Positions 4,844 through 33,466 of a DNA stretch of 64,000 nucleotides are shown here, piece after piece (the stretch's first letter is position 1; each line of letters starts with the position of its first letter). Where the stretch lies: positions 3,719,293-3,783,292 of the forward strand of contig OZ245755.1 of NCBI GenBank assembly GCA_965227345.1, in the 5' to 3' direction. The stretch is from Sphingomonadales bacterium. GTDB taxonomy: Bacteria > Pseudomonadota > Alphaproteobacteria > Sphingomonadales > G965227345. A program made the translations under genes and the position numbers. The notes under the pieces were generated by a model. The model did no database searches. It saw nothing but the letters and a program-made list of their open reading frames with translations, and was not told where the DNA came from.

Positions 4844-7063
4844 ATGACGGGTGGTTCGGCTTCTATTCTGCAAAAAGGGCGCGGGTTCTTTACAATTCGA
4901 AACTCGCTGTTGACGATTGTGGCCGTTTTGGCCTCATTCATTGCATATTTCAGTGTCCAGTCAGCTATTGACGCTGGCCGGTCGCGAGCGGCAGCCAATT
5001 TGATTGTTGAAAATAACGAGATATCTGACCATCTTTTGAAAGTGGCCAGAAGCCTTTCCCTGGAGCGTGGCGTATTTAATACGGCGCTTAATCTGGAGAC
5101 CCCCGGGTCTGCGCAGTTTCGGGTAAAAATTGATGAGGCGCGCAACGTTACCGATCCATCATACAAAATTGCTGTTGCAGGGTTGCGCGATGGTTCTCCA
5201 TTTCCGGGCAGGGAAAAGCTTATCGGAGATATTGAGAAATCATATCAACAATATCTGGAGACAAGGGCAAAGGCAGATGTTGCTTTTGATCAGCCATTGG
5301 CCGATCGCGCGCGGCGAACAGATCGCGCCATTTTCAGGGCGACGACAGATCTTATCAACGCGACACAGGCGGCAAGGATTGCTGCCGAGTATGAAAGCGG
5401 CAGGTCAAACGCAACCGTTGTGACATACCAGCAGCTGAAGCACGCCTTGTGGTCCATGAGCGAAAATGCGGATCAGGAATGGGCGACAATTGGCGAGACA
5501 ATGGCAAGTGCCAAAACAATTTCAAGCATTCGCCTGGAACTGCTAGCGACATATCGTGGTGCTCTCGAGTCATCATGGATGACGGTCAAGGCGCTGACCA
5601 ATTCGACCGTAGTCAATGAAAGTCTGCGTGTACTGGTGGCTGATGTTGAAGAAAAATTCTTTACCGACTTTCAGAAGACCCGCGAAGACGTTTACACGGC
5701 AGCACAGGCAGACGAGCCATATCCGATCTCTGTCGGGGAATGGATCAGTCGCGCGACCGCTGCCACTGCTACTCTTCAGGCACTGGGTGACGCCGCAGGC
5801 GCGCGCACCAGCGAAGTCGCAAGAAGCCACGCCTCTGAGGCTACGGTTGATTTGTGGCGCGAAGTCATGACGTTGATTGTCACACTTGCGATTGCCGCAG
5901 CTTCTTTCTGGCTGGTTCTGTATCGTGTGATCAAGCCATTGCGTGCGCTGGGTGACCAGATGAGCGAACTGGCCAACGGTAATCTTGAGATCGAAATTGC
6001 CGGCTTGAACCGGTACGACGAAGTTGGCGATATGGCCGCGTCAGTACAGGTGTTCAAGGAAGCTGCGCAAGAGAAAATCCGTCTGGAACAGCAACAGCGT
6101 GAGACAGAAGAGACGGCTCGGGTGTCCAGAGAAGCTGAAGAACAGGCCCAGCGCGAGGCTGAAGAACAGCAACGTCTGCGCGACGAGAAACGTGAAGAGG
6201 AATCACGCGAGCAGCGCCGTCAGGAAATGCTGGCTCTGGCCGATGAATTTGAGCGTTCCGTCATGCAGGTCGTCGATGCGGTTGCTGCCTCGGCTGCCGG
6301 CATGGAAGAAGCGGCGCAGGGCATGTCCACTGTCGCGGAAGACACCAGCCGTCAGTCATCGGTTGTTGCAACCGCTTCCGAACAGGCCAGTTCCAATATT
6401 CAGATGGTTGCAAGTGCGGCTGAGGAATTGTCAGCTTCCGTCAAGGAAATCAGCGGACAGGTATCCCAGTCAACCAGCTTCGCCCGTAACGCCGTGAGCG
6501 AAACAGACCGGGCCAATGAAGAAATTCAGGGGCTGGTATCTGCAGCGCAGAAGATTGGCGATGTGGTCAATCTGATCAGTGATATTGCCAGTCAGACAAA
6601 TCTGCTGGCTTTGAATGCGACAATTGAAGCTGCCCGGGCCGGTGAAGCAGGCAAGGGCTTTGCTGTTGTGGCGTCCGAGGTCAAAAATCTGGCCAGCCAG
6701 ACAGCGACAGCGACAGACGAGATCACAACACAGGTTGCCGGCATGCAGCAGGCAACCGAGCAGGCTGTTACGGCGATCAAGGGTATTGCTGCTGTTATCA
6801 AGAAGATTGATGAAACAGCTGTAACCATTGCCGCCGCTGTTGAAGAGCAGGATGCTTCAACCCATGAAATTGCGAGAAACGTCGCTCAGGTCTCGACAGG
6901 TACCCAGGAAGTCACCAGCAATATTGTTACGGTGAACCAGGGGGCTGCAAGTACCGGCACGGCTGCGGCGGGTGTTTTGACCTCTGCAAAGGATGTGTCG
7001 AAGCAAACAGATTCGCTGCGTAGTCACGTCGGCTCATTTCTGGCCCAGATACGGTCAGCCTGA
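4844..7063 (+). CDS. methyl-accepting chemotaxis protein (transmembrane, HAMP)
   Basis: 739 aa with an N-terminal TM, a periplasmic domain of about 300 aa, a second TM and a HAMP domain. It carries the conserved signalling hairpin [37 protein letters not shown]. Confidence 0.9.
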   Translation: MTGGSASILQKGRGFFTIRNSLLTIVAVLASFIAYFSVQSAIDAGRSRAAANLIVENNEISDHLLKVARSLSLERGVFNTALNLETPGSAQFRVKIDEARNVTDPSYKIAVAGLRDGSPFPGREKLIGDIEKSYQQYLETRAKADVAFDQPLADRARRTDRAIFRATTDLINATQAARIAAEYESGRSNATVVTYQQLKHALWSMSENADQEWATIGETMASAKTISSIRLELLATYRGALESSWMTVKALTNSTVVNESLRVLVADVEEKFFTDFQKTREDVYTAAQADEPYPISVGEWISRATAATATLQALGDAAGARTSEVARSHASEATVDLWREVMTLIVTLAIAAASFWLVLYRVIKPLRALGDQMSELANGNLEIEIAGLNRYDEVGDMAASVQVFKEAAQEKIRLEQQQRETEETARVSREAEEQAQREAEEQQRLRDEKREEESREQRRQEMLALADEFERSVMQVVDAVAASAAGMEEAAQGMSTVAEDTSRQSSVVATASEQASSNIQMVASAAEELSASVKEISGQVSQSTSFARNAVSETDRANEEIQGLVSAAQKIGDVVNLISDIASQTNLLALNATIEAARAGEAGKGFAVVASEVKNLASQTATATDEITTQVAGMQQATEQAVTAIKGIAAVIKKIDETAVTIAAAVEEQDASTHEIARNVAQVSTGTQEVTSNIVTVNQGAASTGTAAAGVLTSAKDVSKQTDSLRSHVGSFLAQIRSA

Positions 7064-9862: not shown

Positions 9863-10090
9863 TTATTTTTTCAGCTTGAAATTGCCGAAACGCTTGTTGA
9901 ACTGGGCAACACGACCGCCAGCATCCATCATGCGCTGCGAACCACCGGTCCATGCAGGATGAGACGTTGAGTCAATTTCCAGCGTCAACGTGTCGCCTTC
10001 CTTGCCCCAGGTCGAGCGGGATTGGTAACTTGTGCCGTCGGTCATTGCCACTGTAATTGTGTGGTAATCCGGGTGTGTGTCTTTTTTCAT
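9863..10090 (-). CDS. rpmE: 50S ribosomal protein L31
   Basis: Start [10 protein letters not shown] (cat at 10088-10090) gives 75 aa, ending [13 protein letters not shown]. The longer 120-aa ORF in the track is an upstream over-extension. Confidence 0.9.
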
Positions 10091-10268
10091 CGCTTTTGCT
10101 CCGCGAAATGTGAGGCGTCTGTATAGCCAAGAGTTTGTGCAGTTGCAACCCTTGAGTCTCAACTTTTGGCGGGAAATCTTGACGAATATGGACCATTGTT
10201 GCAGGAAGCCATGCCTGCTATACACAGGCCTGCAACTGAAACCTGAGAGTAATCGGCACCTGAAGCAT

Positions 10269-12077
10269 ATGAATCAGTCAGACAGCACGCCAGAAAATGG
10301 CACTGAAAGTAAGAAAAAACTCGGCGGCCTGAAGTATATCTGGCAATTTCTGAAACCCTATAAGGTTCAACTGGTCGGTGCCCTGATTGCACTGGTTTTT
10401 GCCGCGTCAGCGACCCTGGGAATTGGACAAGCTATCCGTCGACTGGTTGACATGGGATTCTCGGCTGAAAACAGCCAGTTCATCAATCAGTATTTTCTTG
10501 CACTGATGGGGGTGGCGACGCTTTTGGCGGCTGCGACATTTGCACGGTATTTTCTGGTGTCATGGTTGGGGGAACGGGTCGTTGCCGATATTCGCAGTTC
10601 TGTTTATGCTCATGTGATTACGCTCAGCCCCTCTTTTTTTGACACCACAAAATCCGGTGAAATTGTCTCGCGCCTGACGGCAGATACCACGCTGATCCAG
10701 TCGGTTGTTGGTTCTTCCGCTTCTATTGCCCTTCGCAATCTGTTGATGTTGATCGGGGGGCTTGCCCTGCTGGCCATTACCAGCCCCAAGCTTACGGCGC
10801 TGGTCGTGGTTGTGGTGCCTCTGGTTATATTACCGCTGGTGTTTTTCGGTCGCCGCGTTCGTAAATTATCACGTGATACGCAGGACCGGGTCGCGGATGT
10901 CGGTTCCATGGCGTCAGAATCATTTAGTGCTGTGCAGACTGTGCAGGCCTATACCCATGAATTGATCGAGGGCAAGCGCTTTCAGGGCGCTGCCGAACGT
11001 GCCTTTATGGCCTCGGTTCGTCGTATTCGCGCGCGCGCCTGGTTAACGGCCTGTGTCATCCTGCTGGTGTTCGGGGCGATTGATATCATCCTGTGGGACG
11101 GGGCAACAGACGTCATTGCAGGGAAGATGTCGGGCGGTGAGCTGGCTGCCTTTGTTTTTTATGCGGTGATCGTTGCCGGTGCTGTGGGCGCGCTTAGTGA
11201 AGTTTATGGAGAATTGCAACAGGCAGCCGGGGCGGCGGGCCGGATTATGGAACTGCTGGCGCAGCAACCTGATATTCGTGCGCCTGAAAAACCTGTGCCA
11301 ATGCCAGAGCCTGCACGCGGGGCGATTGAGTTTTCAAATGTGGTCTTTCACTATCCTTCAAGGCCCGACGTTGCAGCATTGAATGATTTGTCAATGACCA
11401 TCAAGCCCGGTGAGACTGTGGCTCTGGTGGGCCCTTCAGGGGCCGGTAAATCAACCGTATTGCAGTTGTTGCTACGCTTTTATGACCCCCGGAGTGGTGA
11501 ACTGTCTGTTGATGGAGTGCCGATACGTGAAGTGGACCCCCGGAATTTACGCGAGCGGATGGCAATTGTGCCGCAGGAAACTGTCGTTTTTGCGGCGAGT
11601 GCCTTGGAAAATGTCCGCTATGGTCGCCCCGATGCGAGTGAAGATGACGTGCGCGACGCGCTGCGTGCCGCTGTTGCCGAGGATTTTATCGATGCCTTGC
11701 CAGAAGGGTTACACACATATCTGGGCGAACGCGGCGCCAGATTATCGGGTGGGCAGAAGCAACGCCTTGCAATAGCCCGGGCTATTTTGCGCAATGCGCC
11801 GATATTGCTGCTGGATGAGGCAACAAGTGCTCTGGATGCCGAAAGTGAGCGACTGGTCCAGAAGGCTCTGGAGCATCTGATGCAGGGGCGAACCACGCTG
11901 GTAATCGCCCATCGACTGGCGACCATTCTAAAGGCAGACCGGATCGTCGTGATGGAAGAAGGGCGGGTCGTGGCAACCGGCACCCATCAAGAACTGCTGG
12001 TGCAAGGCGGCTTGTACAAGCGTCTGGCCGAGTTGCAGTTTGGCTTGTCCGAAACACGACCGGCACAGGCGATTTAG
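10269..12077 (+). CDS. ABC transporter, fused permease/ATPase (MsbA/ATM1-like exporter)
   Basis: Start MNQSDS (atg at 10269). Six-TM domain followed by Walker [10 protein letters not shown], signature LSGGQKQR and Walker [13 protein letters not shown]. Confidence 0.85.
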
Positions 12078-12081
12078 GAAA

Positions 12082-13176
12082 CTATCTTTCCGTCAGTTTC
12101 AACTCGATACGCCTGTTGCGCTTGTATGCTTCGGGTGTGTTCCTTGCATCAATTGGCTGATAGGGGCCAAAGCCGGTCGCCGCAAGGCGTTCAGGCGGCA
12201 CACCCTGGGATTGCAGGAAACGGGCAACGGAAATTGCCCGGGCAGTCGATAATTCCCAGTTTGAGGGAAAGCGTTCTGTATTGATGGGCAGAATGTCCGT
12301 ATGTCCGTCAACGCGCAGAATCCAGTTGACCTCGGGTGGAATATTCTCAGCCAGTTCCAAAAGGGTTTTGGCAATTTTGGCCATTTGAACCTTGCCTTCA
12401 CTGCCCAGCTGGTCAGAGGCTGATCCGAACAGGACTTCTGATTCGAATATGAACCTGTCGCCCTGAATGCGGATATCGGACCGGTTGCCCAGCACTTCAC
12501 GCAAACGGCCAAAAAATTCGGATCTGTACCTGGCCAGTTCTTCAACCTTGGATGCCAGCGCCGCATTCAATCTCTTGCCCAGATTAACGATTGTCGCCTG
12601 TTGTTCCTTATCTTTCTGTTCCGAGATCTGGAGCGCCTGTTCAAGCCGGGCCAGCTGTTGACGCAAGCTGGCCAGTTGCTGTGTCAGCAAATCGACCTGT
12701 GATTTGGCTGCGCGTGATTTTTCCTGTTCCTTGACCAGAGATGTTTGTGTTTCTGCATATCGGGTGCGCAGGGTTTCCAGCTCGCTCATCTGTTCTTCAC
12801 TGGATTTGGCCACCTGTCCCATGCGGGATTGTGCCATGGACAGGCGGTTTTGCAGATCATCCACCTGCGCCAGAAGCTCTTCCCTGGTCATGTTGGCATT
12901 GGTAAGGGAGGCTGACAGCTGGTTGATGTTGGCACGCAAGTCTGCCGTTGTCTGGCGTTCAAGGGCCAAAAGGTCCCCCAGTTCCAGAACCTGTTCATTC
13001 AGCTTTTCAAGGGCAGCATCCCGCCCGGATAAAGCTTGCCCCAGAAAAAATTGTGCCAGGACAAAGACAGACAGCAGGAAAATGATGACCAGCAACAGGC
13101 TGCTGAGGGCATCAACAAAGCCCGGCCAGGTGTCCGAGCCACCGGCAGATCGGCGTCTGGTGCGACCCAGGCTCAT
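12082..13176 (-). CDS. MotB/OmpA-like peptidoglycan-binding protein with long coiled coil
   Basis: 364 aa. N-terminal plug/TM with a conserved Asp (WPGFVDALSSLLLVIIFLL), about 170 aa of heptad-like coiled coil, and a C-terminal OmpA-like domain (RVDGHTD...SNWELSTARA...NRRIELKL). Its start overlaps the upstream stop (ATGA at 13173-13176). Confidence 0.8.
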   Translation of the reverse strand: MSLGRTRRRSAGGSDTWPGFVDALSSLLLVIIFLLSVFVLAQFFLGQALSGRDAALEKLNEQVLELGDLLALERQTTADLRANINQLSASLTNANMTREELLAQVDDLQNRLSMAQSRMGQVAKSSEEQMSELETLRTRYAETQTSLVKEQEKSRAAKSQVDLLTQQLASLRQQLARLEQALQISEQKDKEQQATIVNLGKRLNAALASKVEELARYRSEFFGRLREVLGNRSDIRIQGDRFIFESEVLFGSASDQLGSEGKVQMAKIAKTLLELAENIPPEVNWILRVDGHTDILPINTERFPSNWELSTARAISVARFLQSQGVPPERLAATGFGPYQPIDARNTPEAYKRNRRIELKLTER

Positions 13177-14396
13177 TTTCTGTCCGGTCCGGATGGGCGG
13201 TCTGACGCTGTTATTGAGCGTCGGGGGCTGTCGTCACCTGACCCTGGTTTCCGGTCCATGGCCGCAGCCAGTGTACGAGCCAGCAATTTGAATTCCGAAC
13301 GCAGGTCGTCGGTCAGCTGGTTCCGGCTTTTGCCGACTTCTTCAGCAAGGTGTTTAACATGGACATCCAGATTACGGAGATGGCCCCGCGAGGCTTCGTC
13401 GAGGCCGCCCCCGCCTTCCCGATGGGAAAGGGCGTCACTCAACTGTGCCATAACGCTGCGCATTTCATTTTGGGAATCAACAAGCCGGACAAGCAGGTCT
13501 TGCTCCGCCTGACGTTGATCGGTCAGGGTCTCCAGTTTTTCGGAAAGCTGCATCAAGGCGCGCGCGCTGTCTTCACGACCGGATTCCGACCGGCTGATCG
13601 TGCGCTGAAGATTATCCAGACTATCCGCCGATTGTTCGAGAAGCGCCCCGATATAGGCGGGGATTGACTGGTCACCACCCTCGAGGGCGGGACCCGCAGA
13701 AGCATGGGACAATTTGGTGACCGTCGAAAGCCAGTCTTCCAGATCATTGAAAAACCGGTTCTGGGCCTGTCCTGCCTGAAGGTCCAGAAAGCCCAGAATG
13801 ACAGAACCGGCCAGACCAAAAAGGGACGAGGAAAACGCTGTACCCATGCCGCTCAATGGCTTTTCGAGACCCTTTTTCAGGGAATCGAACATCAGGGCAA
13901 AATCACCAGAGTCGACGGACAGGCTGTCAATTGTGCCACTGATCGCGCTGATGGTCCCCAAAAGTCCCCAGAAGGTGCCCAGAAGGCCCAGAAAGATCAG
14001 CAAGCCAATAAGATAACGCGATATTTCGCGTGATTCGTCCAGTCGCGAGCCGATGCCATCCAATAGTGTCCGCATGGACAGGGGCGAAAGTTTCATGGTG
14101 CCGGAATCGTCACCCAGCATGCGTGCCATGGGGGCCAGCAGCACCGGGTCACGGTCAATTTTTGTTGGCGTGCCGACCTGGCGATATTCGTCAATCCACG
14201 CGACTTCATGTTTCAGAGAAGCAATCTGGCGCACGATATAGACGATGCCGATGATCAGCGTTGCGAGAATCAGCCCGTTCAGGCCGGGATTTGCCATGAA
14301 CGCCGTAAAGATCGTGTTGAAGAGAGCGCCACAAACGGCCACGACAATTGCGAGAAACAGAAATATCCGTGTCAGGAATCGTTGCAATTGCGTCAT
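13173..14396 (-). CDS. MotA/TolQ/ExbB-family proton-channel protein with extended C-terminal tail
   Basis: 407 aa. Two N-terminal TM helices are followed by the channel core LLIFLGLLGTFWGLLGTI...LSGMGTAFSSSLFGLAGSVILGFL, which parallels the in-window TolQ. The tail is about 190 aa and rich in helix-forming Q/E/R/L residues. Confidence 0.8.
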   Translation of the reverse strand: MTQLQRFLTRIFLFLAIVVAVCGALFNTIFTAFMANPGLNGLILATLIIGIVYIVRQIASLKHEVAWIDEYRQVGTPTKIDRDPVLLAPMARMLGDDSGTMKLSPLSMRTLLDGIGSRLDESREISRYLIGLLIFLGLLGTFWGLLGTISAISGTIDSLSVDSGDFALMFDSLKKGLEKPLSGMGTAFSSSLFGLAGSVILGFLDLQAGQAQNRFFNDLEDWLSTVTKLSHASAGPALEGGDQSIPAYIGALLEQSADSLDNLQRTISRSESGREDSARALMQLSEKLETLTDQRQAEQDLLVRLVDSQNEMRSVMAQLSDALSHREGGGGLDEASRGHLRNLDVHVKHLAEEVGKSRNQLTDDLRSEFKLLARTLAAAMDRKPGSGDDSPRRSITASDRPSGPDRK

Positions 14397-14494
14397 GCTG
14401 GTGTCCTCTCCCTTGGGAAACGCTATGCTGTTGGCAGCATTTTCACTCGAAAGCCTAATATCATATCAAAGTCTTATCAATGACTTTGGCAGCA

Positions 14495-15076
14495 TCAAGG
14501 CGTTTGGACATTGTTCGATAAGGGGCGGGACAGCAGATAAATGTCAGCACGGTCCGGGTTTGTTTTGCCGGGCGGGTCTGCGTCAGGCCCCATGGCCCGT
14601 ATATTTATACGGTCAGCTTCAAGGCCGGCTTCCAGAATGAGAGCGCGAAGCGCCTCGGCGCGGTGATAGGAAATTCGTACCAGATCGCCAATTTGTGCAG
14701 GTTCTGATCCGGCATCTGCATAGGCCCTGATCTCAACAGTTTTCCCGTTGGAGGTCATCGTGCTGACCCAGGACCGCAGTTCACTGGCCTGTGCTGATGA
14801 AAAACTGCTTTCGCTTGTCCTGAAGGCAACAGAATAATCAGGTGCACCCTGAACCTGTACCTGGGGCAGGGGCACTGCTTTGGGGCGCAACTGACCGGCG
14901 TCAGTTCCAATCTTGTCTTTTGGAGATGCCTCATTTTCCGACAGGTCACCGGTCAAGGCGTCCAGAACACCCGGATTGATTTGAACATCATTCTTCTGCG
15001 AGGCGTTTTGCGCCAAAGCATGACTTATGGACCAGATTGCCATGATGCAGATAAATGCAGACCGGAAGCCCGACAT
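14495..15076 (-). CDS. secreted protein with degenerate OmpA-like C-terminal domain
   Basis: 193 aa. Signal peptide AIWSISHALA|QN. The C-terminus VEIRAYADAG...ISYHRAEALRALILEAGLEADRINIRAMG resembles an OmpA/MotB peptidoglycan-binding fold. The start lies 5 nt after the suhB stop. Confidence 0.5.
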   Translation of the reverse strand: MSGFRSAFICIMAIWSISHALAQNASQKNDVQINPGVLDALTGDLSENEASPKDKIGTDAGQLRPKAVPLPQVQVQGAPDYSVAFRTSESSFSSAQASELRSWVSTMTSNGKTVEIRAYADAGSEPAQIGDLVRISYHRAEALRALILEAGLEADRINIRAMGPDADPPGKTNPDRADIYLLSRPLSNNVQTP

Positions 15077-15081: not shown

Positions 15082-15894
15082 CTAGCTTTCCTGAGGTTGA
15101 GATTTTGCCTCACGTAATATTCGGGTCAGGCTGCCATGTATGTTGCCATTGGTTGCCACGATTTCTCCTGTTGTCAGCATGCGACTGCGCCCGTCATATT
15201 CGGAAACGTTGCCCCCAGCTTCCTGGACAATGATAATACCCGCAGCGATATCCCAGGCTGACAGCCCGGCTTCCCAATAGCCGTCATAACGACCGGCCGC
15301 GACATAAGCCAGATCAAGTGCTGATGATCCGAACCGGCGGACACCCGCCGTTTTGGGCATAATAATATTCATCTGCCTTAGGAAGGCCGCTGCATCGCCA
15401 TGCCCTGCAAACGGAACACCTGTTGCCAGCACGCACTGGATCAGGTCGCGTCGCGCTGATACGCGCAGCCTTTGCGAATTAAGATAGGCACCGCGTCCCC
15501 GTTCTGCCCAGAACAGTTCATCGGTAACGGGCTGGTAGATCACACCGGCGACAATGCTGCCATTCTGCTCAAGCCCGATTGAAATGGCAAAATGGGGGAT
15601 GCCGTGCAGAAAATTCGTCGTGCCATCCAGCGGGTCTATAATCCAGCGGCTGTTGGTGTCCTTGCCGACAATTTCTTCGCCTTCTTCCAGCAGAAAGCCA
15701 AAATCGGGACGTGCCTTGGATAATTCCGCTTTCAGAATTCTTTCTGCTTTCAGGTCGGCCGAGCTGACAAAGTCTGCCGGACCCTTGCGGGATACCTGAA
15801 GCTGTTCGACTTCGCCGAAATCTCTCACGAGATGGCGTGCAGCCTTGTGAGCCGCGCCGACCATGACGTTTATTACGGCGGATTGGAGAGCCAT
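15082..15894 (-). CDS. suhB: inositol monophosphatase family protein
   Basis: 270 aa. Carries the WIIDPLDGTTNF and SSALDLAYVAAGRYDGYWE motifs. Confidence 0.9.
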   Translation of the reverse strand: MALQSAVINVMVGAAHKAARHLVRDFGEVEQLQVSRKGPADFVSSADLKAERILKAELSKARPDFGFLLEEGEEIVGKDTNSRWIIDPLDGTTNFLHGIPHFAISIGLEQNGSIVAGVIYQPVTDELFWAERGRGAYLNSQRLRVSARRDLIQCVLATGVPFAGHGDAAAFLRQMNIIMPKTAGVRRFGSSALDLAYVAAGRYDGYWEAGLSAWDIAAGIIIVQEAGGNVSEYDGRSRMLTTGEIVATNGNIHGSLTRILREAKSQPQES

Positions 15895-15920: not shown

Positions 15921-16487
15921 TCAATTTTCGGCGCGTTTGACGTAGGTACTGTCCGCGGTATTGACCACGATTTTTGCCCCCTGATCGACAAATGGCGGCA
16001 CCATCACGCGGACACCGTTTTCCATTTTCGCGGGCTTGTAAGACGATGTGGCAGTCTGACCCTTGACGGTTGGTTCGGTTTCGATAATTTCCAGTGTTAC
16101 CGTATCCGGGAGGGTGATGCCGATCGGCTCACCTTCGTATGACTCGACCATTACCTGCATACCGTCTTGCAGGAACACGGCCGGCTCACCGACCAGTTCG
16201 CGGGAAATATCAATTTGTTCAAAACTTTCCAGATCCATGAACGTCAGCATCTCGCCATTCTCGTAAAGATACTGAAAATCCTTTTGGTCCAGCCTGACGC
16301 GTTCCACAGATTCTGATGACCGGAAGCGTTCATTCAGCTTGGTGCCGTCGCGCAGGTTTTTCAATTCAACCTGCAGGAATGCCCCGCCTTTTCCAGGCAT
16401 GGTGTGGGCGGTTTTTACCGCTACCCACAAGCCGTTCTTGTGCTCAATAACGTTACCAATACGGATTTCGTTGCCGTTGATCTTCAT
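15921..16487 (-). CDS. efp: elongation factor P
   Basis: 188 aa. [14 protein letters not shown]...[16 protein letters not shown] and the overall EF-P layout. Confidence 0.95.
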
Positions 16488-27564: not shown

Positions 27565-28637
27565 CGATGGAGAACGAGGCGGACAACAGGCTGGTAGACA
27601 GTGCGCCGTCAGATGGTGATTTGCGTGACCCGGGCTTGCGGCCGACCAATCTGGACGATTTTATCGGTCAGCGTCAGTCCTGCAATAATCTCAGGGTGTT
27701 TATTGAATCCGCGCGTACACGGGGTGAAGCGCTGGACCATGTGTTGTTTTACGGGCCACCAGGTTTGGGCAAGACGACGCTGGCGCAGATCATGGCGCGG
27801 GAGCTGGGTGTCAATTTTCGCGCGACGTCCGGGCCCGTGATCGCCAAGGCCGGTGACCTGGCGGCATTGCTGACAAATCTTCAGGAAAATGACATTCTGT
27901 TCATTGATGAAATTCATCGGCTGAACCCGGCGGTCGAAGAAATTCTTTATCCGGCCATGGAAGATTTCCAGCTTGATCTGATCATTGGAGAGGGGCCTGC
28001 AGCCCGTTCAGTCCGCATTGATCTGCCGCGCTTTACACTGGTGGGTGCCACGACCCGTTCGGGGTTGCTGACAACCCCCCTGCGCGACAGATTTGGTATT
28101 CCGACACGGCTGGAATTCTACAAGGTCGAGGAACTGGTCGAAATCGTTAGCCGGGGGGCAAGATTGCTGGGGATATCGATGACTATGGACGGGGCCGCCG
28201 AAGTGGCACGCCGGTCGCGCGGGACCCCGCGCGTTGCCGGGCGGCTGTTGCGCCGGGTGCGTGATTTTGCGCTGGTGGCGGGGGCTGCAGAAATTACAGA
28301 CAAAGTGGCCGATCAGGCCCTGACGCGGCTGGAGGTTGACAAGCTGGGGCTGGACGCCATGGATCACAGATATATGAGATGTATCGGCGTCGATTATGGC
28401 GGCGGTCCTGTCGGGGTTGAAACGCTTGCGGCGGCATTGTCGGAACCGCGTGATGCGATTGAAGAAATTATTGAACCCTATCTGCTGCAACAGGCACTGG
28501 TGCAACGCACGCCGCGCGGGCGTATGCTCAGCCCGGCAGGGTTCAGGCATATGGGGCTGGAATTGCCGCGCGCCGGAGCTGTTCCCGCATCTCAACTGGA
28601 CCTGATTCAGGATGATCAGGGGGATGAAATTGACTGA
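27561..28637 (+). CDS. ruvB: Holliday junction DNA helicase RuvB
   Basis: [20 protein letters not shown], and [21 protein letters not shown]. Confidence 0.95.
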
Positions 28638-29175
28638 TACCCCGGAATTTGGCCCGAACCTTCCGCCTGAGAGCGGGCGGCTTGATGCGGGTGTGCACGC
28701 CCTGCCGTTGCGGGTCTATTACGAAGATACCGATGTTGGCGGTATTGTTTATTACGCCAATTATCTCAAGTTCATGGAACGTGGCCGGTCTGACATGCTG
28801 CGGCTGGCGGGGGTGGATCAGGCCAGCATGATGCAGCCGGGAGACAGCGCGGATGAGGCCCTGATGTTTGCGGTGCGCCATTGCAGTGTGGATTACCTTA
28901 AACCCGCCCGCTATGACGATGAAATACTGGTCAGAACATGGCTTCATGAAATAACCGGGGCCAGTGTGACCATGGTGCAGGAAATTTCAAGAAAGCAGGA
29001 AATTCTGGTCCGGGCCAGCGTCAAGGCGGCCGTCCTGAACAAGGAGGGGGCTCCCCGGAGATTGCCGCGAAATGTCCGCCATATTTTAGACTCACTCATC
29101 AGTTCTAATGCCGCAACCGCTTCAGGGCCAAAAGCGCTAAAGGCACTTACGCAACAGGCTTCTTCAGCAGAATAG
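28612..29175 (+). CDS. ybgC: tol-pal-associated acyl-CoA thioesterase (YbgC-like, 4HBT family)
   Basis: [30 protein letters not shown] is the hot-dog thioesterase core, and the gene sits directly before tolQ. The start is ambiguous (28612 or ATG at 28624). Confidence 0.8.
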
Positions 29176-29190
29176 CCAGCAAGACGAGGA

Positions 29191-29925
29191 ATGAATAATC
29201 CTATGGAGCAGAATATTATCGAAACAACCGATCTGGGCGGCGCTGTACCGGACTTTTCGGCATGGGGCATGTTCACGGGCGCGGATATTGTTGTCCAGCT
29301 CGTCATGATCATCCTGCTTGCGGCATCAGTATGGTGCTGGGCGATCATTTTTGACAAATTGCTGCGCATGCGCCGGGTGACCCGTCAGGCGGACAGTTTT
29401 GAAGATGCGTTCTGGTCGGGAAAGTCGCTGGAAGACCTGTATGACAGGGTGGTGAAAAATCCTGATCACCCCATGGCGATGGTCTTTGTAACAGCGATGC
29501 GTGAATGGCAGCGTTCGGTCACCCCGTCGGGCAAACTGGCCAAGACGATGGGCTTGCAGGATCGTATTTACAAGGTCATGCGGATTACGGTCAGTCGCGA
29601 GATGGAGGGACTTGAGAATTATCTGGGCTTTCTGGCGACAGTCGGGGCAACGGCTCCCTTCGTTGGGCTGTTTGGCACGGTGTGGGGCATTATGAACAGC
29701 TTCCAGAGTATTGCATTGAGCCATAATACAAGTCTGGCTGTTGTGGCCCCCGGTATTGCCGAAGCCCTGTTCGCCACGGCGATGGGCCTGATTGCGGCTA
29801 TCCCTGCGGTGATCGGTTACAACAAGATCACGGCAGATATGGGCCGTTATGCCAACCGGCTGGATGGGTTTGCGGATGAATTCGGGACCATCCTCTCACG
29901 TCAGCTTGATGAGGGGGAGCACTGA
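29191..29925 (+). CDS. tolQ: Tol-Pal system protein TolQ
   Basis: 244 aa. FLATVGATAPFVGLFGTVWGIMNSF and APGIAEALFATAMGLIAAIPAVIGYN. Confidence 0.9.
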   Translation: MNNPMEQNIIETTDLGGAVPDFSAWGMFTGADIVVQLVMIILLAASVWCWAIIFDKLLRMRRVTRQADSFEDAFWSGKSLEDLYDRVVKNPDHPMAMVFVTAMREWQRSVTPSGKLAKTMGLQDRIYKVMRITVSREMEGLENYLGFLATVGATAPFVGLFGTVWGIMNSFQSIALSHNTSLAVVAPGIAEALFATAMGLIAAIPAVIGYNKITADMGRYANRLDGFADEFGTILSRQLDEGEH

Positions 29926-30374
29926 TGGGGGCCAGCATGAATTCAGGCCCCAAAGGTATGGGAAGCGGTTTTCGGGGCCGCCATCGGGCGATGAGCGAAA
30001 TCAACGTTACGCCATTTGTGGATGTCATGCTGGTGCTGCTGATCGTCTTCATGGTCGCAGCGCCGCTTTTGACGATCGGTGTGCCTATTGACCTGCCACA
30101 AAGTACCGCCCGGCCATTGCCGGAAGATAACCAGCCGCTGGCAGTTACCATTGATCGTGACGGCGCGGTGTATTTGCAGGATCTGAAGGTCACGGTGGAA
30201 GAGCTTGTTCCCCGTCTTGCGGCGATTGCCGAGAACAGAATGGACCGGCGGATATACGTGCGCGCAGATCAGGGCATATCTTATGGCCGGGTGATGGAAG
30301 TTATGGGCGCGATGAATGGTGCCGGGTTTTCCAAGGTCGCGTTGGTCAGCGAGCATGCGAGCAAGAAAAAGTAG
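29925..30374 (+). CDS. tolR: Tol-Pal system protein TolR (ExbD family)
   Basis: 149 aa. EINVTPFVDVMLVLLIVFMV. Its start is coupled to the tolQ stop. Confidence 0.9.
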   Translation: MGASMNSGPKGMGSGFRGRHRAMSEINVTPFVDVMLVLLIVFMVAAPLLTIGVPIDLPQSTARPLPEDNQPLAVTIDRDGAVYLQDLKVTVEELVPRLAAIAENRMDRRIYVRADQGISYGRVMEVMGAMNGAGFSKVALVSEHASKKK

Positions 30375-30434
30375 TTTGCATTAAAGACGTAATGGGTCGC
30401 CATTTGGCCGCCCGGTGACAGGAAACAGAATAGT

Positions 30435-31274
30435 TTGCGTATTGGCGTCATATATTCCAGCGTTTTGCATGCAGGTGTTGCCTTGTTTGCCGTCTTTGGC
30501 TTGCCGCATGTTAATGACCGGGAGGTGCTGGAGCCAGATATCATTCCGGTTGAAATCGTCAACATTGAAGAAGAAACCATCAATAAAAAACCGGAAGAAA
30601 AGCCCGAACCGGAACCAGAACCTGAGCTCGAGCCGGAGCGCAAGGCAGTAGCCGTTGCCGCTGAGGCCACACCGCCCCCGCCGCCGCCCGCTGATGCCGT
30701 GCCTTTGCCGGATGTTGAACCGGAGATTGAGAAAAAGCCTGAAGCGAAAAAGGTAGAAAAGCCTCAGCCACAAACACCGGCGGCGTCACCCACGCGCAAG
30801 CCCAGGCCCCCCAGCCGGTTTGATGCCAATCGCATCGCGCTGCTGCTGGACAAAAAGGCAAAAGAGGATCAATCGGAACCGGACCGCCAGCCTGACGAGA
30901 AGGCGATAGACAAAAAGGTGGAGACCGCCAGCCGGTCAAGCATAGACAAGGCACGCCTGACTGCAAGCTTGCAGGCGGCGATCCGCGCGCAGGTGGAACC
31001 TTGCTGGAGCGTGCCTGCCGGCGCAATGGATGCAGAAGACCTGAAAGTCCGTATCAGGATATTTTTGTCGCCTGATGGTAGTCTGGCTAAAGCCCCCCAG
31101 ATCCTCGATCAGACAAAAATGTATGTTACAGGTGGCGATTTCTATCGTGTGGCAGCTGAAAGTGCCCGTCGGGCGGTTCAGAAATGTGCGCCCCTGAAAT
31201 TGCCCCTTGAAAGTTATGATATCTGGCGTGACACTGAATTGACCTTTGACCCCAAAGAGCTGCTTGAAGGATAA
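30435..31274 (+). CDS. tolA: TolA-like cell envelope integrity protein
   Basis: An N-terminal TM, an E/P/K-rich linker (PEEKPEPEPEPELEPE...PPPPPPADA) and a C-terminal TolA-type domain. It lies between tolR and tolB. Confidence 0.7.
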   Translation: MRIGVIYSSVLHAGVALFAVFGLPHVNDREVLEPDIIPVEIVNIEEETINKKPEEKPEPEPEPELEPERKAVAVAAEATPPPPPPADAVPLPDVEPEIEKKPEAKKVEKPQPQTPAASPTRKPRPPSRFDANRIALLLDKKAKEDQSEPDRQPDEKAIDKKVETASRSSIDKARLTASLQAAIRAQVEPCWSVPAGAMDAEDLKVRIRIFLSPDGSLAKAPQILDQTKMYVTGGDFYRVAAESARRAVQKCAPLKLPLESYDIWRDTELTFDPKELLEG

Positions 31275-31277
31275 GCG

Positions 31278-32708
31278 ATGTATAATGACTATAGCCGTTT
31301 GAACAGGAGACAAAGTGTGAAGACTGCCGTTGGAACAGATTGTTTGTGGACAAAACAGCATCGCCTGTTTCATGGCGTCGTGGGGCTGATGCTGGCGCTG
31401 TTTCTGGCAATATGGATGACGCCTGCCCATGCAGTGTTGAAGGTAGATATTACACGTGGTGCAGATGCGCCGCTTCCGATCGCCATTCCCGGGCTTTACG
31501 GCAGTTCCGCCGAAAACACCAGTGCAGGTACCAGCTCGGAAATTGGTCAGCGTATGGCGCAGGTTGTGACGGCCGATCTGGAGCGAAGCGGGTTGTTCAG
31601 GGCAATTGATCCACGGGCATTTGTCCTGTCTCCGGGGGCGACGAATGTGCGCCCCAAGTTTGGCAACTGGCGGGCGATTAACGCGCAGGCTCTGGTCACG
31701 GGCCTTGTGACCTTGCAAAGCGACGGGCGGCTGAGAGTGGAATTTCGGCTTTGGGATGTGCTGGCAGAAAGCCAGATGGCGGGCTACCAGTATTTTGCCA
31801 CGCCAGATACCTGGCGTCGCGTTGCCCATATTATTGCTGATGCTATTTACAAACGCCTGACCGGTGAAGATGGCTATTTTGACAGTCGTATTGTTTATGT
31901 GGCGGAAACCGGGCCTAATACAAGCCGGATAAAACGTCTTGCCATGATGGATCAGGACGGATTCAATCACCGGTTTTTGACGGATGGCAAGAATCTGGTG
32001 TTGACCCCCCGGTTTTCACCAACCAGCCAGGAAATAACCTATCTGGCCTATTACAACGACAGGCCAAGGGTTTATCTTTACAATATTGACAGTGGCAAGC
32101 AGGAGGTTCTTGGAGACTTTCCGGGCATGACCTTTGCGCCCCGGTTTTCCCCGGATGGCAATAATGTCATCATGAGCATGGCCAGTCGCGGCAATTCCGA
32201 CATCTACGAACTTGATCTGCGCACCCGACGTTCTGTGCGGTTGACCAGCAATCCGGCCATTGACACTTCCCCGTCTTATGCGCCGGACGGACAATTTATT
32301 ACTTTCAACTCCGACCGGGGAGGGAGCCAGCAAATTTACGTCATGAAATCAGATGGTTCGGATGTTAAACGAATCAGTTTTGGTGAAGGAAAATATGGCA
32401 CGCCGGTATGGTCACCACGCGGAGACTGGATTGCATTCACAAAAATATGGAAAGGCAAGTTTTATATTGGCGTGATGAAAACGGATGGTCGCGGAGAACG
32501 CCTGTTGACAGAAAGTTATCTGGATGAAGGGCCGACATGGGCGCCAAACGGCAGAGTTCTCATGTTTTTCCGTCAGCAGCCATATGACAGATATGGCAAA
32601 GGGGGGGATACTCACCTGTGGTCAATTGATTTAACAGGGAAAAATTTGAGACAAATTATCACGCCGCTGGATGCATCTGACCCGGCATGGTCACCTCTGA
32701 TACAATAG
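31278..32708 (+). CDS. tolB: Tol-Pal system beta-propeller protein TolB
   Basis: Signal sequence [14 protein letters not shown] and repeated FSPDG/YAPDG/WSPRG propeller blades. The true start may be internal. Confidence 0.9.
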
Positions 32709-32912
32709 CGCCCTTGATACGGGTGTGAGTGTATAGTAAAAGAATAATTACAAAGGGTGTACATGTCGTGGGAAGGGTTATCCTCTGATAAAGCGTAATT
32801 ATGTTACGAAAAACAATCGGTTGATTAAGTCCGGGTGCTCGGGAACAAGTTGAATAAGTCCGAGTGTTCGGTCAAAACAAGTTAAACAATGAGCTGTGGA
32901 AGGAACCACCTT

Positions 32913-33446
32913 ATGCTTCAAAGAAGCTTCGGCCTAACAATGTTAGGCATTGCAGCAGCGGCACTTCTGGTGTCGGGCTGTTCATCGACAAAAAAATCTG
33001 CACCCGTAGAAGAAACAGTTCAGCAGGAACCTGCTGTTTATGAACCTCAGGAACCTGTGGTCTCCGAACCTGTTTATCAGGGACCGGAAGCGGGCAGCCA
33101 GGAAGATCTGCAACAGGCTGCAGGCGACATGGTATTCTTTGGATTCGATCGATATGACCTGTCCGCGGAAGCTCGTGCTACGCTGGAAGCTCAGGCACGC
33201 TGGATGGCACAGAATCCTTCAGTAGACCTGATCATTGAAGGTCATTGTGATGAACGCGGTACCCGCGAATACAACCTTGCACTGGGTGAGCGTCGTGCAA
33301 CGGCTGCCAAGAACTATCTGGTCGCACTGGGTGTTTCCAGTGGCCGGCTTGAAACTGTCAGCTATGGTAAGGAACGTCCGATGGTGCTGGGCAACGATGC
33401 CGAAGCATGGGCGAAAAATCGTCGGGCACTCAGCCGTGTAAAATAG
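32913..33446 (+). CDS. pal: peptidoglycan-associated lipoprotein Pal
   Basis: Start MLQRSF (atg at 32913). Lipobox LLVSGC. OmpA-like domain IEGHCDERGTREYNLALGERRA...NRRA. Confidence 0.9.
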   Translation: MLQRSFGLTMLGIAAAALLVSGCSSTKKSAPVEETVQQEPAVYEPQEPVVSEPVYQGPEAGSQEDLQQAAGDMVFFGFDRYDLSAEARATLEAQARWMAQNPSVDLIIEGHCDERGTREYNLALGERRATAAKNYLVALGVSSGRLETVSYGKERPMVLGNDAEAWAKNRRALSRVK

Positions 33447-33466
33447 CATTGACGATATGCTTGTTT

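What the first reader, a model, noticed from the sequence alone, without database searches (positions are those of the whole stretch)
12082..15076. Orphan MotA/MotB-type ion-channel pair with coiled-coil extensions on both subunits, plus a secreted OmpA-like partner, embedded in housekeeping context
Three co-directional, tightly packed genes follow suhB with a 5-nt gap. The first is a 193-aa signal-peptide protein with a degenerate OmpA-like C-terminus. The second is a 407-aa protein whose core (LLIFLGLLGTFWGLLGTI ... LSGMGTAFSSSLFGLAGSVILGFL) parallels the channel helices of the bona fide TolQ at 29191. It then continues into a helical Q/E/R/L-rich cytoplasmic tail of about 190 aa. The third is a 364-aa protein whose start overlaps the second gene's stop (ATGA). 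It has a TolR/MotB-type plug-TM with the conserved Asp (WPGFVDALSSLLLVIIFLL; compare in-window TolR TPFVDVMLVLLIVFMV), a coiled coil of about 170 aa and an OmpA-like peptidoglycan anchor. The complete Tol-Pal system lies elsewhere in the window, and there are no TonB, flagellar, gliding or Zorya accessory genes nearby. This therefore looks like an additional, functionally unassigned member of the 5:2 ion-driven motor superfamily. An extended A-subunit tail combined with a long B-subunit coiled coil is not the architecture of MotAB, TolQR or ExbBD.
Basis: partly seen in the sequence, partly recalled or inferred. Interest (0 to 1): 0.7.

Follow-up and report, generated by a model that had tools for sequence, protein, structure and literature searches.

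The report
Conserved ZorAB-like envelope motor gene pair
Two overlapping genes encode an ion-driven membrane motor of the flagellar-stator/Tol/Ton type. It sits at the same chromosomal spot across alphaproteobacteria, most resembles the core of the Zorya anti-phage system but lacks Zorya's effector genes, and has no known function.

Summary
Three minus-strand genes follow suhB:
- a 193-aa secreted protein with a weak OmpA-like domain (14495-15076);
- a 407-aa A subunit (13173-14396);
- a 364-aa B subunit (12082-13176), whose start overlaps the A stop (ATGA).

A is a real but divergent A subunit of the 5:2 ion-driven motor type.
- Pfam MotA_ExbB scores below threshold.
- The AlphaFold model matches only ExbB, TolQ, ZorA and MotA structures.
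- Zorya ZorA profiles hit at E=6.6e-13, whereas the in-window TolQ control scores 3.7e-3.

B has an invariant WPGFVDAL motif (Asp22). It also has a proline-free periplasmic helix of about 184 residues and a canonical MotB-type peptidoglycan-binding domain. B belongs to NCBIfam PRK09039 and is the ortholog family of Agrobacterium "MotB-like protein Atu3746".

The pair is not an orphan.
- More than 8000 homologs were scored, and 902 clusters at 50% identity reach E<=1e-30.
- The synteny thiE-efp-suhB-(OmpA-like)-A-B-MsbA-like ABC exporter-rpmE runs from Emcibacter to Sinorhizobium.
- The OmpA-like gene is facultative (26 of 41 loci).
- A gammaproteobacterium carries only A-B, in a different neighbourhood.

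I found no paper that characterises the family. My reading is a vertically inherited, wall-anchored, proton-driven ZorAB-like motor with a housekeeping envelope role. The physiological output is unknown.

The parts
14495..15076 (-). 193-aa secreted accessory protein with a signal peptide, a short conserved N-terminal motif (DVQINPGVLDALTG), a variable linker and a degenerate OmpA-like C-terminal domain (aa 85-169). It is a facultative member of the locus.
   Evidence: ORF and sequence. Pfam OmpA 28.9 bits against a 27.2 cut-off. Positional homologs lie between suhB and A in 26 of 41 loci (jackhmmer/hmmsearch), and their OmpA hits score 20-45 bits. The shared N-terminal motif is shown.
13173..14396 (-). 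407-aa A subunit: a ZorA-like MotA/ExbB-superfamily channel and rotor subunit with four predicted TM helices and a 202-residue cytoplasmic helical tail.
   Evidence: PADLOC ZorA1 E=6.6e-13 and ZorA3 E=1.5e-10. Pfam MotA_ExbB 17.7 bits, below its cut-off. AF2 model pLDDT 72, with the TM core at 80-93. The Foldseek top 50 are all ExbB, TolQ, ZorA or MotA. More than 8000 homologs; 902 clusters at E<=1e-30 that match along the full length including the tail.
13947..14018 (-). A-subunit penultimate TM helix (aa 127-150) with the near-invariant FLGLLGTFWGL motif. Thr141 aligns with the ion-pathway Thr of EcZorA (T147) and of ExbB.
   Evidence: Invariant columns. Alignment to ZorA GIIGTFYGL and ExbB FVGLFGTVWG. 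Alignment to the in-window TolQ over 20 columns. The role of ZorA T147 is taken from PMC11946911.
13782..13850 (-). A-subunit last TM helix (aa 183-205), GMGTAFSSSLFGLAGSVILGFL, with conserved Ser189-191.
   Evidence: Conservation. A weak alignment to type II ZorA GIKTAFWAS. Equivalence to ZorA S184 is inferred, not shown.
13176..13781 (-). A-subunit cytoplasmic tail (aa 206-407): helices at about 206-232, 247-325 and 334-381, separated by two low-confidence breaks.
   Evidence: AF2 secondary structure and pLDDT. Composition. Homologs align along the whole tail.
13365..13400 (-). Conserved tail motif D-E-A-S-R-G-H-L-R-N-L-D (aa 333-344; His339, Asn342 and Asp344 are invariant among close homologs). 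This helix module is tandemly repeated 3 to 7 times in long-tailed homologs.
   Evidence: Invariant columns. Motif counts are 1 copy in 169 of 270 homologs, 3 in P0241 and 7 in P0273, where Pro/Ala-rich linkers separate the repeats.
13173..13176 (-). ATGA overlap of the A stop and the B start, which implies translational coupling.
   Evidence: Sequence. The A-B spacing is 2 nt in S. meliloti and 3 nt in Thiohalospira.
12082..13176 (-). 364-aa B subunit: a MotB/ZorB-type stator subunit and member of NCBIfam PRK09039 ('peptidoglycan-binding protein').
   Evidence: NF006543 442 bits against a 305 cut-off. PADLOC ZorB3 E=1.6e-22. Homologs are named 'MotB-like protein Atu3746'.
13042..13128 (-). 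B-subunit N-terminal TM segment (aa 17-45) with the invariant WPGFVDAL motif. Asp22 is the presumed ion-binding aspartate.
   Evidence: Invariant in 24 of 24 homologs. Hydropathy. Asp22 aligns with the MotB TM Asp in a sub-threshold HMMER alignment.
12490..13041 (-). B-subunit periplasmic helix or coiled coil (aa 46-229), about 184 residues. Both ends are conserved, and the middle takes insertions of about 70-170 residues in some lineages.
   Evidence: AF2 predicts a single helix 16-229. There are no Pro residues in 46-235. Weak Pfam coiled-coil family hits: EzrA, Filament, Rod_CreS. Length variation is shown.
12085..12474 (-). B-subunit OmpA/MotB-type peptidoglycan-binding domain (aa 235-364) with intact GHTD...SNWELS.ARA...NRRIE motifs.
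   Evidence: Pfam OmpA 58.3 bits. The best solved relatives are MotS, MotB and PomB domains, E=4e-15 to 1e-11.

Best explanation
The A (407 aa) and B (364 aa) genes encode a two-protein inner-membrane complex of the 5:2 ion-driven motor type. Its closest known relative is ZorAB, the membrane core of the Zorya anti-phage system. It is not the flagellar stator, Tol or Ton.

Shown:
- A has the fold and the signature TM motifs of MotA/ExbB/TolQ/ZorA proteins, plus a conserved cytoplasmic helical tail.
- B has a single TM helix with an invariant Asp, a helix of about 184 residues and a canonical MotB-type peptidoglycan-binding domain.
- The two genes are translationally coupled and always adjacent.
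- The pair is inherited vertically at one housekeeping locus across Alphaproteobacteria, without any Zorya effector gene.

Inferred, by analogy with solved MotAB, ExbBD, TolQR and ZorAB complexes:
- Five A subunits surround a B dimer.
- Protons pass by way of B Asp22 and A Thr141/Ser189-191.
- This drives A to rotate around the wall-anchored B.
- The A tail, with its conserved DEASRxHLRNLD helix, is the cytoplasmic output or input element.
- The long B rod sets or senses the distance or tension between the inner membrane and the peptidoglycan.

[quoted passage not shown] It is not a phage-defence module. In many lineages it is assisted by a secreted OmpA-like protein.
For: Fold:
- All of the top 50 Foldseek hits of the A model are ExbB, TolQ, ZorA or MotA chains; the top 26 all have probability >=0.97.
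- The highest sequence identity (18-19%) is to a type I ZorA.

Profiles:
- PADLOC ZorA1 hits at E=6.6e-13, and ZorA3 at 1.5e-10, 2e-9 and 1.6e-7.
- NCBIfam lists only ZorA subfamilies among channel families for A.
- The control TolQ scores only E=3.7e-3 against ZorA models.

Motifs:
- GLLGTFWGL aligns with EcZorA GIIGTFYGL (T147) and with ExbB GLFGTVWG.
- The function of ZorA T147/S184 and ZorB D26 is taken from PMC11946911.

B subunit:
- Invariant WPGFVDAL motif.
- OmpA 58 bits; closest solved domains are MotS, MotB and PomB.
- ZorB3 E=1.6e-22.
- PRK09039 equivalog, 442 bits.

Coupling and conservation:
- ATGA overlap.
- B follows A in all 51 loci that extend past A, and in S. meliloti and Thiohalospira.

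Housekeeping character:
- More than 8000 homologs and 902 clusters at 50% identity with E<=1e-30.
- Conserved synteny with thiE, efp, suhB, an MsbA-related exporter and rpmE from Emcibacter to Sinorhizobium.
- GC content matches the surroundings.
- The Agrobacterium ortholog Atu3746 was detected as a membrane protein under all growth conditions tested (PMC8656257).
Against: - Pfam MotA_ExbB is below its gathering score.
- Sequence profiles of the family find no significant PDB match. The best is a type II ZorA at E=0.6.
- NCBIfam ZorA scores (18-19 bits) are far below their cut-offs of 100-500.
- The 5:2 stoichiometry, ion flux and rotation are entirely inferred; no multimer model could be run.
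- Unlike ZorB, whose peptidoglycan-binding domain is fused to the TM helix without a linker, B has a rod of about 27 nm. That is longer than the roughly 9 nm between inner membrane and peptidoglycan quoted for E. coli. Some homologs add 10-25 nm more. The geometry is therefore unexplained.
- A has four predicted TM helices, against three in ZorA, ExbB and TolQ.
- No phenotype, partner or output is known, so the physiological role is a guess.
Confidence: 0.7

Rival explanations
1. It is a minimal or domesticated Zorya-type anti-phage system. ZorAB-like sensing of envelope damage would be coupled to an effector encoded elsewhere, or to membrane depolarisation by the motor itself.
For: ZorA and ZorB profiles are the best named matches for both subunits. 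The tailed A subunit is the ZorA hallmark. Tail length varies between homologs from about 350 to 614 aa.
Against: No ZorC, ZorD, ZorE, ZorF or ZorG-like gene, or any other defence gene, is adjacent here, in S. meliloti or in Thiohalospira. The pair sits at a fixed housekeeping locus across orders rather than in a variable island. Composition is native. Scores against curated ZorA models are far below their cut-offs. B's architecture differs from ZorB.
Confidence: 0.1
2. It is an energiser of the Tol/Ton kind. It would use the proton-motive force to act on an outer-membrane or periplasmic partner, for example the secreted OmpA-like protein or a process linked to the neighbouring MsbA-related lipid exporter. 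The long B rod would serve as the force transducer in place of TolA or TonB.
For: ExbB and TolQ are the top structural matches. A secreted OmpA-like protein is encoded directly upstream in 26 of 41 loci. An MsbA-related ABC exporter (TIGR02204, 915 bits) is convergent with B, 4 nt away, and is adjacent in about half of the loci, in S. meliloti and in Agrobacterium as Atu3744. The B rod is long enough to span the periplasm.
Against: B ends in a peptidoglycan-binding domain, not in a TolA/TonB-like partner-binding domain. The accessory gene is dispensable in many lineages. Convergent genes are not co-transcribed, and this adjacency may be frozen ancestral synteny. No TolQ or ExbB family model hits A.
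Confidence: 0.15
3. It is a second flagellar stator (MotAB paralog), as many automatic annotations state ('flagellar motor protein MotA/MotB').
For: Source annotations say so. B's peptidoglycan-binding domain is closest to MotS, MotB and PomB domains. An MCP chemoreceptor gene lies in the window.
Against: No NCBIfam MotA or PomA model hits A even at E<=1. MotA structures rank below ExbB, TolQ and ZorA (first at rank 46, probability 0.93). The cytoplasmic loop between TM2 and TM3 is only about 65 residues, too short for the torque-generating domain that defines flagellar stators (PMC12505986). Pfam MotB_plug gave no hit. B's best MotB-family score (MotD, 106 bits) is far below its 283 cut-off. 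The locus contains no flagellar genes in any genome examined.
Confidence: 0.04

Closest known systems
ZorAB, the membrane core of Zorya anti-phage systems (solved structures 8QYD, 8VVN, 8VVI)
   Same: - The A subunit has a MotA/ExbB-type TM core followed by a long helical cytoplasmic tail.
- The G(L/I)(L/I)GTF(W/Y)GL motif carries the ion-pathway Thr.
- The B subunit has an N-terminal TM Asp and an OmpA/MotB-type peptidoglycan-binding domain.
- ZorA and ZorB are the best profile matches.
- A's length (407 aa) is near that of the solved type II ZorA chain (378 aa).
   Different: - No ZorC, ZorD, ZorE, ZorF or ZorG genes.
- Fixed housekeeping locus and vertical inheritance.
- Four predicted TM helices rather than three.
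- The tail has a family-specific DEASRxHLRNLD motif.
- B carries a helix of about 184 residues between the TM and the peptidoglycan-binding domain, whereas the ZorB domain is fused directly to the TM helix.
- Scores are far below the curated ZorA cut-offs.
Flagellar stator MotAB/PomAB
   Same: Adjacent A and B genes. B has a TM Asp and a MotB-type peptidoglycan-binding domain with a linker between them, and this is the closest solved domain family. A has four TM helices with both ends in the cytoplasm.
   Different: A lacks the torque-generating cytoplasmic domain and has a long C-terminal tail instead. No MotA model hits it. No MotB_plug hit. Not in a flagellar cluster.
TolQR and ExbBD (the true Tol-Pal set is in this window at 28612-34547)
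   Same: The fold of the A-subunit core gives the top Foldseek hits. The GxxGTxWG motif is shared with the in-window TolQ.
   Different: B has an OmpA-type domain, not a TolR/ExbD-type periplasmic domain. No TolA or TonB partner is present. No TolQ or ExbB family model hits A. TolQ and ExbB have no long tail.
NCBIfam PRK09039 'peptidoglycan-binding protein', equivalent to UniProt 'MotB-like protein Atu3746' (Agrobacterium)
   Same: The B subunit is a full-length member (442 bits against a 305 cut-off). Homologs carry these names. Atu3746 lies by the MsbA-like Atu3744, as B does here.
   Different: These are annotation labels only. I found no functional study. The only paper that mentions Atu3746 lists it in a membrane proteome.

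Membership tests
5:2 ion-driven motor superfamily (MotA/ExbB/TolQ/ZorA with MotB/ExbD/TolR/ZorB) | A subunit with the MotA/ExbB-type helical TM fold | tested here: met
   All of the top 50 Foldseek PDB hits are ExbB, TolQ, ZorA or MotA chains, with TM-score about 0.5 over 210-240 columns on the target.
5:2 ion-driven motor superfamily (MotA/ExbB/TolQ/ZorA with MotB/ExbD/TolR/ZorB) | Pfam PF01618 MotA_ExbB at or above its gathering score | tested here: not met
   17.7 bits against a 22.9 cut-off, E=0.0032, covering residues 84-154 only.
5:2 ion-driven motor superfamily (MotA/ExbB/TolQ/ZorA with MotB/ExbD/TolR/ZorB) | Conserved Thr/Ser in the last two TM helices of A, and a single-TM B subunit with an invariant Asp | tested here: met
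   Thr141 in near-invariant GLLGTFWGL and Ser189-191. Asp22 is invariant in 24 of 24 B homologs.
5:2 ion-driven motor superfamily (MotA/ExbB/TolQ/ZorA with MotB/ExbD/TolR/ZorB) | A and B genes adjacent, with B directly downstream | tested here: met
   ATGA overlap. B follows A in 51 of 51 loci with room, and in S. meliloti and Thiohalospira.
5:2 ion-driven motor superfamily (MotA/ExbB/TolQ/ZorA with MotB/ExbD/TolR/ZorB) | A5B2 stoichiometry and ion-driven rotation | not testable with these tools
   Only monomer AlphaFold2 was available.
Zorya ZorAB | ZorA and ZorB profile membership | tested here: inconclusive
   PADLOC ZorA1 46 bits (E=6.6e-13), covering only profile positions 105-227 of 683. 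ZorB3 78 bits. NCBIfam ZorA_2 and ZorA_4 score 18-19 bits against cut-offs of 100 and 500. The match is specific relative to TolQ but is not full-length.
Zorya ZorAB | Long helical cytoplasmic tail on the A subunit | tested here: met
   A 202-residue tail, predicted helical with two breaks. Homologs have tails up to about 400 residues.
Zorya ZorAB | Linked effector genes: ZorC/ZorD (type I), ZorE (type II) or ZorF/ZorG (type III) | tested here: not met
   Neighbours are efp, an inositol monophosphatase-family gene, thiE, an MsbA-related ABC exporter, rpmE and DUF1465. The same holds in S. meliloti. Different housekeeping genes flank the pair in Thiohalospira.
Zorya ZorAB | ZorB peptidoglycan-binding domain fused to the TM helix without a linker | tested here: not met
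   A helix of about 184 residues separates the TM helix from the OmpA-like domain. The ZorB feature is taken from PMC11946911.
Flagellar stator MotAB/PomAB | MotA torque-generating cytoplasmic domain and MotA family profile | tested here: not met
   No MotA or PomA NCBIfam model at E<=1. The TM2-TM3 loop is about 65 residues. MotA structures rank 46th or lower.
Flagellar stator MotAB/PomAB | MotB plug region (Pfam PF13677) and MotB equivalog score | tested here: not met
   No MotB_plug hit. The best MotB-type models are all below their cut-offs: MotD 106 against 283, MotS 81 against 264.
TolQR / ExbBD | TolQ/ExbB and TolR/ExbD equivalog profiles, and an adjacent TolA or TonB gene | tested here: not met
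   None of these models hits A or B. The true TolQ and TolR in the window score 281 and 130 bits on them. No TolA- or TonB-like gene is adjacent.
NCBIfam PRK09039 peptidoglycan-binding protein (B subunit) | Full-length match above the curated cut-off | tested here: met
   NF006543: 442.4 bits against 305, residues 1-364 on profile positions 1-350 of 350. NF006544: 412.5 against 362.

The most novel reading that the evidence does not exclude
The pair is a fifth functional class of 5:2 motors. On this reading it is a housekeeping, vertically inherited relative (possibly the evolutionary source) of the Zorya core. Proton-driven rotation of a tailed A pentamer around a wall-anchored B dimer would report or adjust the mechanical state of the alphaproteobacterial envelope. 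The output would go to the cytoplasm through the conserved, repeatable DEASRxHLRNLD tail helix. The periplasmic B rod, whose length varies between lineages, would act as ruler or tension sensor.
Probability: 0.3. Interest if true: 0.8.

Novelty: new variant of a known kind. Interest (0 to 1): 0.6.

Why it matters
Every known class of 5:2 ion-driven motor has opened a field: flagellar rotation, Ton uptake, Tol-Pal division, gliding and type 9 secretion, and Zorya defence.

This pair is a sixth candidate.
- It is present in a large share of Alphaproteobacteria, including tractable models such as Sinorhizobium meliloti and Agrobacterium (Atu3746).
- It is routinely mis-annotated as a flagellar motor protein.
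- It is a two-gene module with no known partner.

Its specific similarity to ZorAB offers a way to ask where Zorya came from. It also offers a way to ask what a tailed, wall-anchored motor does when no nuclease is attached.

The invariant Asp22, Thr141 and the tail motif give ready point mutants, so the question can be tested directly.

Tried and rejected
PDB searches by sequence:
- The single A sequence, the 39-sequence profile and a 30-sequence core-only profile gave no significant match to any motor subunit.
- Only coiled-coil noise appeared (stathmin and similar), plus sub-threshold ZorA and ExbB hits.

Profile-profile comparison of the A family with the in-window TolQ aligned only 20 columns.

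Literature searches found no paper on this family. Terms tried were PRK09039, ZorAB-like/ZorA-like, MotAB-like/stator-like, combinations of 5:2 motor names, MotB-like, Atu3745-3747 and Zorya with Alphaproteobacteria.
- The 2025 MotAB phylogeny paper excludes Zorya-type proteins and does not discuss this family.
- The two Zorya structure papers do not mention effector-less homologs.

- An exact look-up of the window's own A protein found no contig on record, so I did not identify the source organism. Its closest relatives are Emcibacter/Kordiimonas-like.
- The promoter and terminator scan gave nothing useful in the 98-nt gap upstream of A.

Ideas considered and dropped:
- That the B rod is an antiparallel hairpin. 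AF2 predicts one unbroken helix, but a monomer model cannot decide this.
- That the trio is an obligate unit (rejected).

Full report
**1. What is in the sequence**

Three ORFs lie on the minus strand downstream of efp (15921-16487) and an inositol monophosphatase-family gene, 'suhB' (15082-15894).
- A 193-aa ORF at 14495-15076.
- A 407-aa ORF at 13173-14396, called A here.
- A 364-aa ORF at 12082-13176, called B here.

Five nucleotides separate the suhB stop from the first ATG. Ninety-eight nucleotides separate the first ORF from A. The A stop and the B start overlap as ATGA. Composition is like the rest of the window (GC 0.53-0.55).

**2. The A subunit**

Pfam MotA_ExbB scores only 17.7 bits, below its 22.9 cut-off. 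No NCBIfam TolQ, ExbB, MotA or PomA model hits A even at E<=1. The only channel families listed are two Zorya ZorA subfamilies, at E of about 1e-3.

Against PADLOC, A hits ZorA1 at E=6.6e-13 (46 bits). This covers residues 123-265, that is the last two TM helices and the start of the tail. It also hits several ZorA3 models at 1e-10 to 1e-7. As a control, the true TolQ of this window reaches only E=3.7e-3 on any ZorA model. That TolQ scores 281 bits on the TolQ equivalog. The ZorA similarity is therefore specific.

An AlphaFold2 model built on 39 homologs has pLDDT 72, with 80-93 in the membrane core. All of its top 50 Foldseek PDB matches are chains of ExbB, TolQ, ZorA or MotA, and the top 26 have probability >=0.97. 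The highest identity (18-19%) is to a type I ZorA, and MotA ranks lowest among the four families.

Sequence-only searches of the PDB were not significant. Their best sub-threshold hits were again ZorA and ExbB. They align A407 GLLGTFWGL with EcZorA GIIGTFYGL and with ExbB GLFGTVWG. The Thr in this motif is ZorA T147. With S184, it forms the ion-selectivity filter next to ZorB Asp26 (PMC11946911).

Across 116 representatives that are 32-53% identical to A, FLGLLGTFWGL and P..GMG.AF..SL.GL...LGF are the most conserved stretches.

Hydropathy and the model indicate four TM helices, at about residues 9-31, 38-58, 127-150 and 183-205, with both termini in the cytoplasm. That is one more than ZorA, ExbB or TolQ.

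**3. The A tail**

Residues 206-407 are predicted to be helical, with two breaks at 233-246 and 326-333. Homologs align over the whole tail, so it is part of the family architecture and not a low-complexity appendage.

The tail contains a sharply conserved motif, GLDEASRxHLRNLDVY. His339, Asn342 and Asp344 are invariant among close homologs. A strict pattern finds the motif once in 169 of 270 homologs. It finds three copies in a 581-aa homolog and seven in a 614-aa homolog. In those two proteins the motif-bearing helices are strung together by Pro/Ala-rich linkers.

The tail therefore ends in a repeatable helix module. That is more suggestive of a binding element than of a plain coiled coil.

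**4. The B subunit**

B is a full-length member of NCBIfam PRK09039.1-2, 'peptidoglycan-binding protein' (442 bits against a 305 cut-off). Its features are:
- An N-terminal WPGFVDAL motif that is invariant in 24 of 24 homologs, with Asp22 at the start of the single TM helix.
- One long predicted helix spanning residues 16-229, with no proline between 46 and 235.
- Weak matches to coiled-coil families.
- An OmpA/MotB-type domain (58 bits) with intact GHTD, SNWELS.ARA and NRRIE motifs. Its closest solved relatives are MotS, MotB and PomB.

The two ends of the rod are conserved. The middle accepts insertions of about 70-170 residues in some lineages, giving B lengths of 349-535 aa. A straight helix of 184 residues is about 27 nm long. 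That is much more than the roughly 9 nm between inner membrane and peptidoglycan quoted for E. coli in the Zorya paper. The rod's geometry (tilted, lying along the wall, a hairpin, or extendable) is an open and interesting problem.

**5. The 193-aa protein**

This protein has a signal-like N-terminus and an OmpA hit just above threshold (28.9 against 27.2 bits). The canonical peptidoglycan-binding motifs are degraded.

Iterated searches of the suhB-A interval in related loci show a positional homolog in 26 of 41 loci. Its C-terminal domain of about 120 residues is conserved (Pfam OmpA 20-45 bits). Its linker is highly variable, giving total lengths of 100-385 aa. A short motif follows the signal peptide, (S/E)V.VD..VLD.LG; in this window it reads DVQINPGVLDALTG.

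The gene is absent in the Defluviicoccus-like genomes, in S. meliloti and in Thiohalospira. It is a frequent accessory and not part of the core.

**6. Distribution and context**

- More than 8000 homologs of A, and the same for B, were scored, all strongly.
- An exhaustive HMM search finds 902 clusters at 50% identity with E<=1e-30 and 2282 with E<=1e-10.
- Fifty-five genomic loci were fetched from Emcibacter, Caenispirillum, Reyranella, Vineibacter, Defluviicoccus and many alphaproteobacterial MAGs.
- B follows A in every locus that extends far enough (51 of 51).
- The order thiE-efp-suhB-(OmpA-like)-A-B-MsbA-related ABC exporter (opposite strand)-rpmE-DUF1465 recurs widely.

The same block is present in Sinorhizobium meliloti: inositol monophosphatase, then A (368 aa), then B (342 aa, 2 nt later), then the ABC exporter, rpmE and DUF1465. 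In Agrobacterium the B ortholog is 'MotB-like protein Atu3746', beside the MsbA-like Atu3744.

A gammaproteobacterium, Thiohalospira, has A (369 aa) and B (371 aa) 3 nt apart between unrelated housekeeping genes. This shows that the two-gene pair is the self-sufficient unit.

No Zorya effector, TonB/TolA, flagellar or gliding gene accompanies the pair anywhere I looked.

**7. Literature**

I found no study of this family.
- The only paper that mentions Atu3746 lists it, labelled 'flagellar motor protein', among proteins found in detergent-resistant membranes of A. tumefaciens under all conditions tested (PMC8656257). So the protein is made and is membrane-bound.
- The 2025 phylogeny of MotAB and its non-flagellar relatives excludes Zorya-type proteins and does not describe this group (PMC12505986).
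- The Zorya structure papers do not discuss effector-less chromosomal relatives.

The library lacks most subscription-journal papers, so absence from it is not proof of absence.

**8. Interpretation**

What is shown: a translationally coupled A/B pair with the fold, the motifs and the invariant Asp of the 5:2 motor superfamily. It is specifically nearest to ZorAB, is anchored by a MotB-type wall-binding domain, and is vertically inherited at a housekeeping locus.

What is inferred by analogy with solved complexes: A5B2 assembly, proton flow through Asp22 and Thr141/Ser189-191, and rotation of A around B.

What is proposed: a constitutive envelope function. Possibilities are sensing or adjusting the link between inner membrane and wall, or signalling envelope state to the cytoplasm through the tail motif.

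Rival readings and my estimates:
- Minimal Zorya-like defence, about 0.10. The fixed synteny and the lack of effectors argue against it.
- A Tol/Ton-like energiser acting through the OmpA-like accessory or linked to the MsbA-related exporter, about 0.15. The evidence is suggestive adjacency only.
- A second flagellar stator, about 0.04. The absence of any MotA signature and the very short cytoplasmic loop contradict it.

**9. Verdict**

The family is known to databases only as a label, and its function is unknown. I rate it a new variant of a known kind of machine and of solid interest (0.6). It is widespread, it is tractable in model rhizobia, it is systematically mis-annotated, and it bears on the origin of Zorya and on the range of tasks that 5:2 motors perform.

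Noticed in passing
window 13365-13400 (A aa 333-344); homologs P0241 and P0273: The tail motif DEASRxHLRNLD is single-copy in most A homologs. It is tandemly repeated 3 times (581-aa protein) and 7 times (614-aa protein), with Pro/Ala-rich linkers between the repeats. The tail therefore grows by adding a discrete helix module.
   Followed up: partly
window 12490-13041 (B aa 46-229); alignment A2: The B periplasmic helix has conserved ends and a middle that takes insertions of about 70-170 residues in some lineages (B lengths 349-535 aa). Even the short form, at about 27 nm, exceeds the usual distance between inner membrane and peptidoglycan.
   Followed up: partly
window 14495-15076; gap ORFs in L005, L007, L018, L025, L030, L034: Homologs of the OmpA-like accessory share a short motif directly after the signal peptide, (S/E)V.VD..VLD.LG. 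A linker of very variable length separates it from the C-terminal domain.
   Followed up: partly
window 10077-12077 (+): An MsbA-related ABC exporter (TIGR02204, 915 bits) converges on B with only 4 nt between the two stop codons. The adjacency recurs in about half of the related loci, in S. meliloti and in Agrobacterium (Atu3744 and Atu3746).
   Followed up: partly
L057 and L058 (Thiohalospira sp., Gammaproteobacteria): The A-B pair occurs outside Alphaproteobacteria in a different housekeeping neighbourhood (ribonucleotide reductase, flavodoxin, pyridoxamine-phosphate oxidase), with no accessory gene.
   Followed up: partly
L008 3661-5892 and L019 1956-4208; window 4844-7063: In two Emcibacter-like MAGs a methyl-accepting chemotaxis protein gene sits between suhB and A, in place of the OmpA-like gene. 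The window itself has an MCP gene about 5 kb beyond B.
   Followed up: no
window 38065-41400 (-): A 1111-aa ORF with no Pfam hit at E<=1e-5 lies in the most GC-rich part of the window (0.60 against about 0.53). Several long ORFs overlap it in other frames, which may point to repetitive or biased sequence.
   Followed up: no
window 46081-48870 and 54163-57075 (+): Two TPR-repeat proteins of about 930-970 aa flank a GAF/HATPase histidine kinase (50698-52779) and other regulator-sized ORFs, next to a mannose-1-phosphate guanylyltransferase. This looks like a polysaccharide or exosortase-type regulatory cluster.
   Followed up: no
L056 (CP090106.1): This PLSDB record is titled 'pSymB' but is 3.72 Mb and carries chromosomal housekeeping genes (rpmE, purE, thiE). 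It appears to be the S. meliloti chromosome under the wrong label.
   Followed up: no
window 30435-31274 (+): The ORF in the tolA position of the Tol-Pal cluster (279 aa, Pro/Glu/Lys-rich) matched no NCBIfam model at E<=1e-5, although all its neighbours matched their Tol-Pal equivalogs.
   Followed up: no
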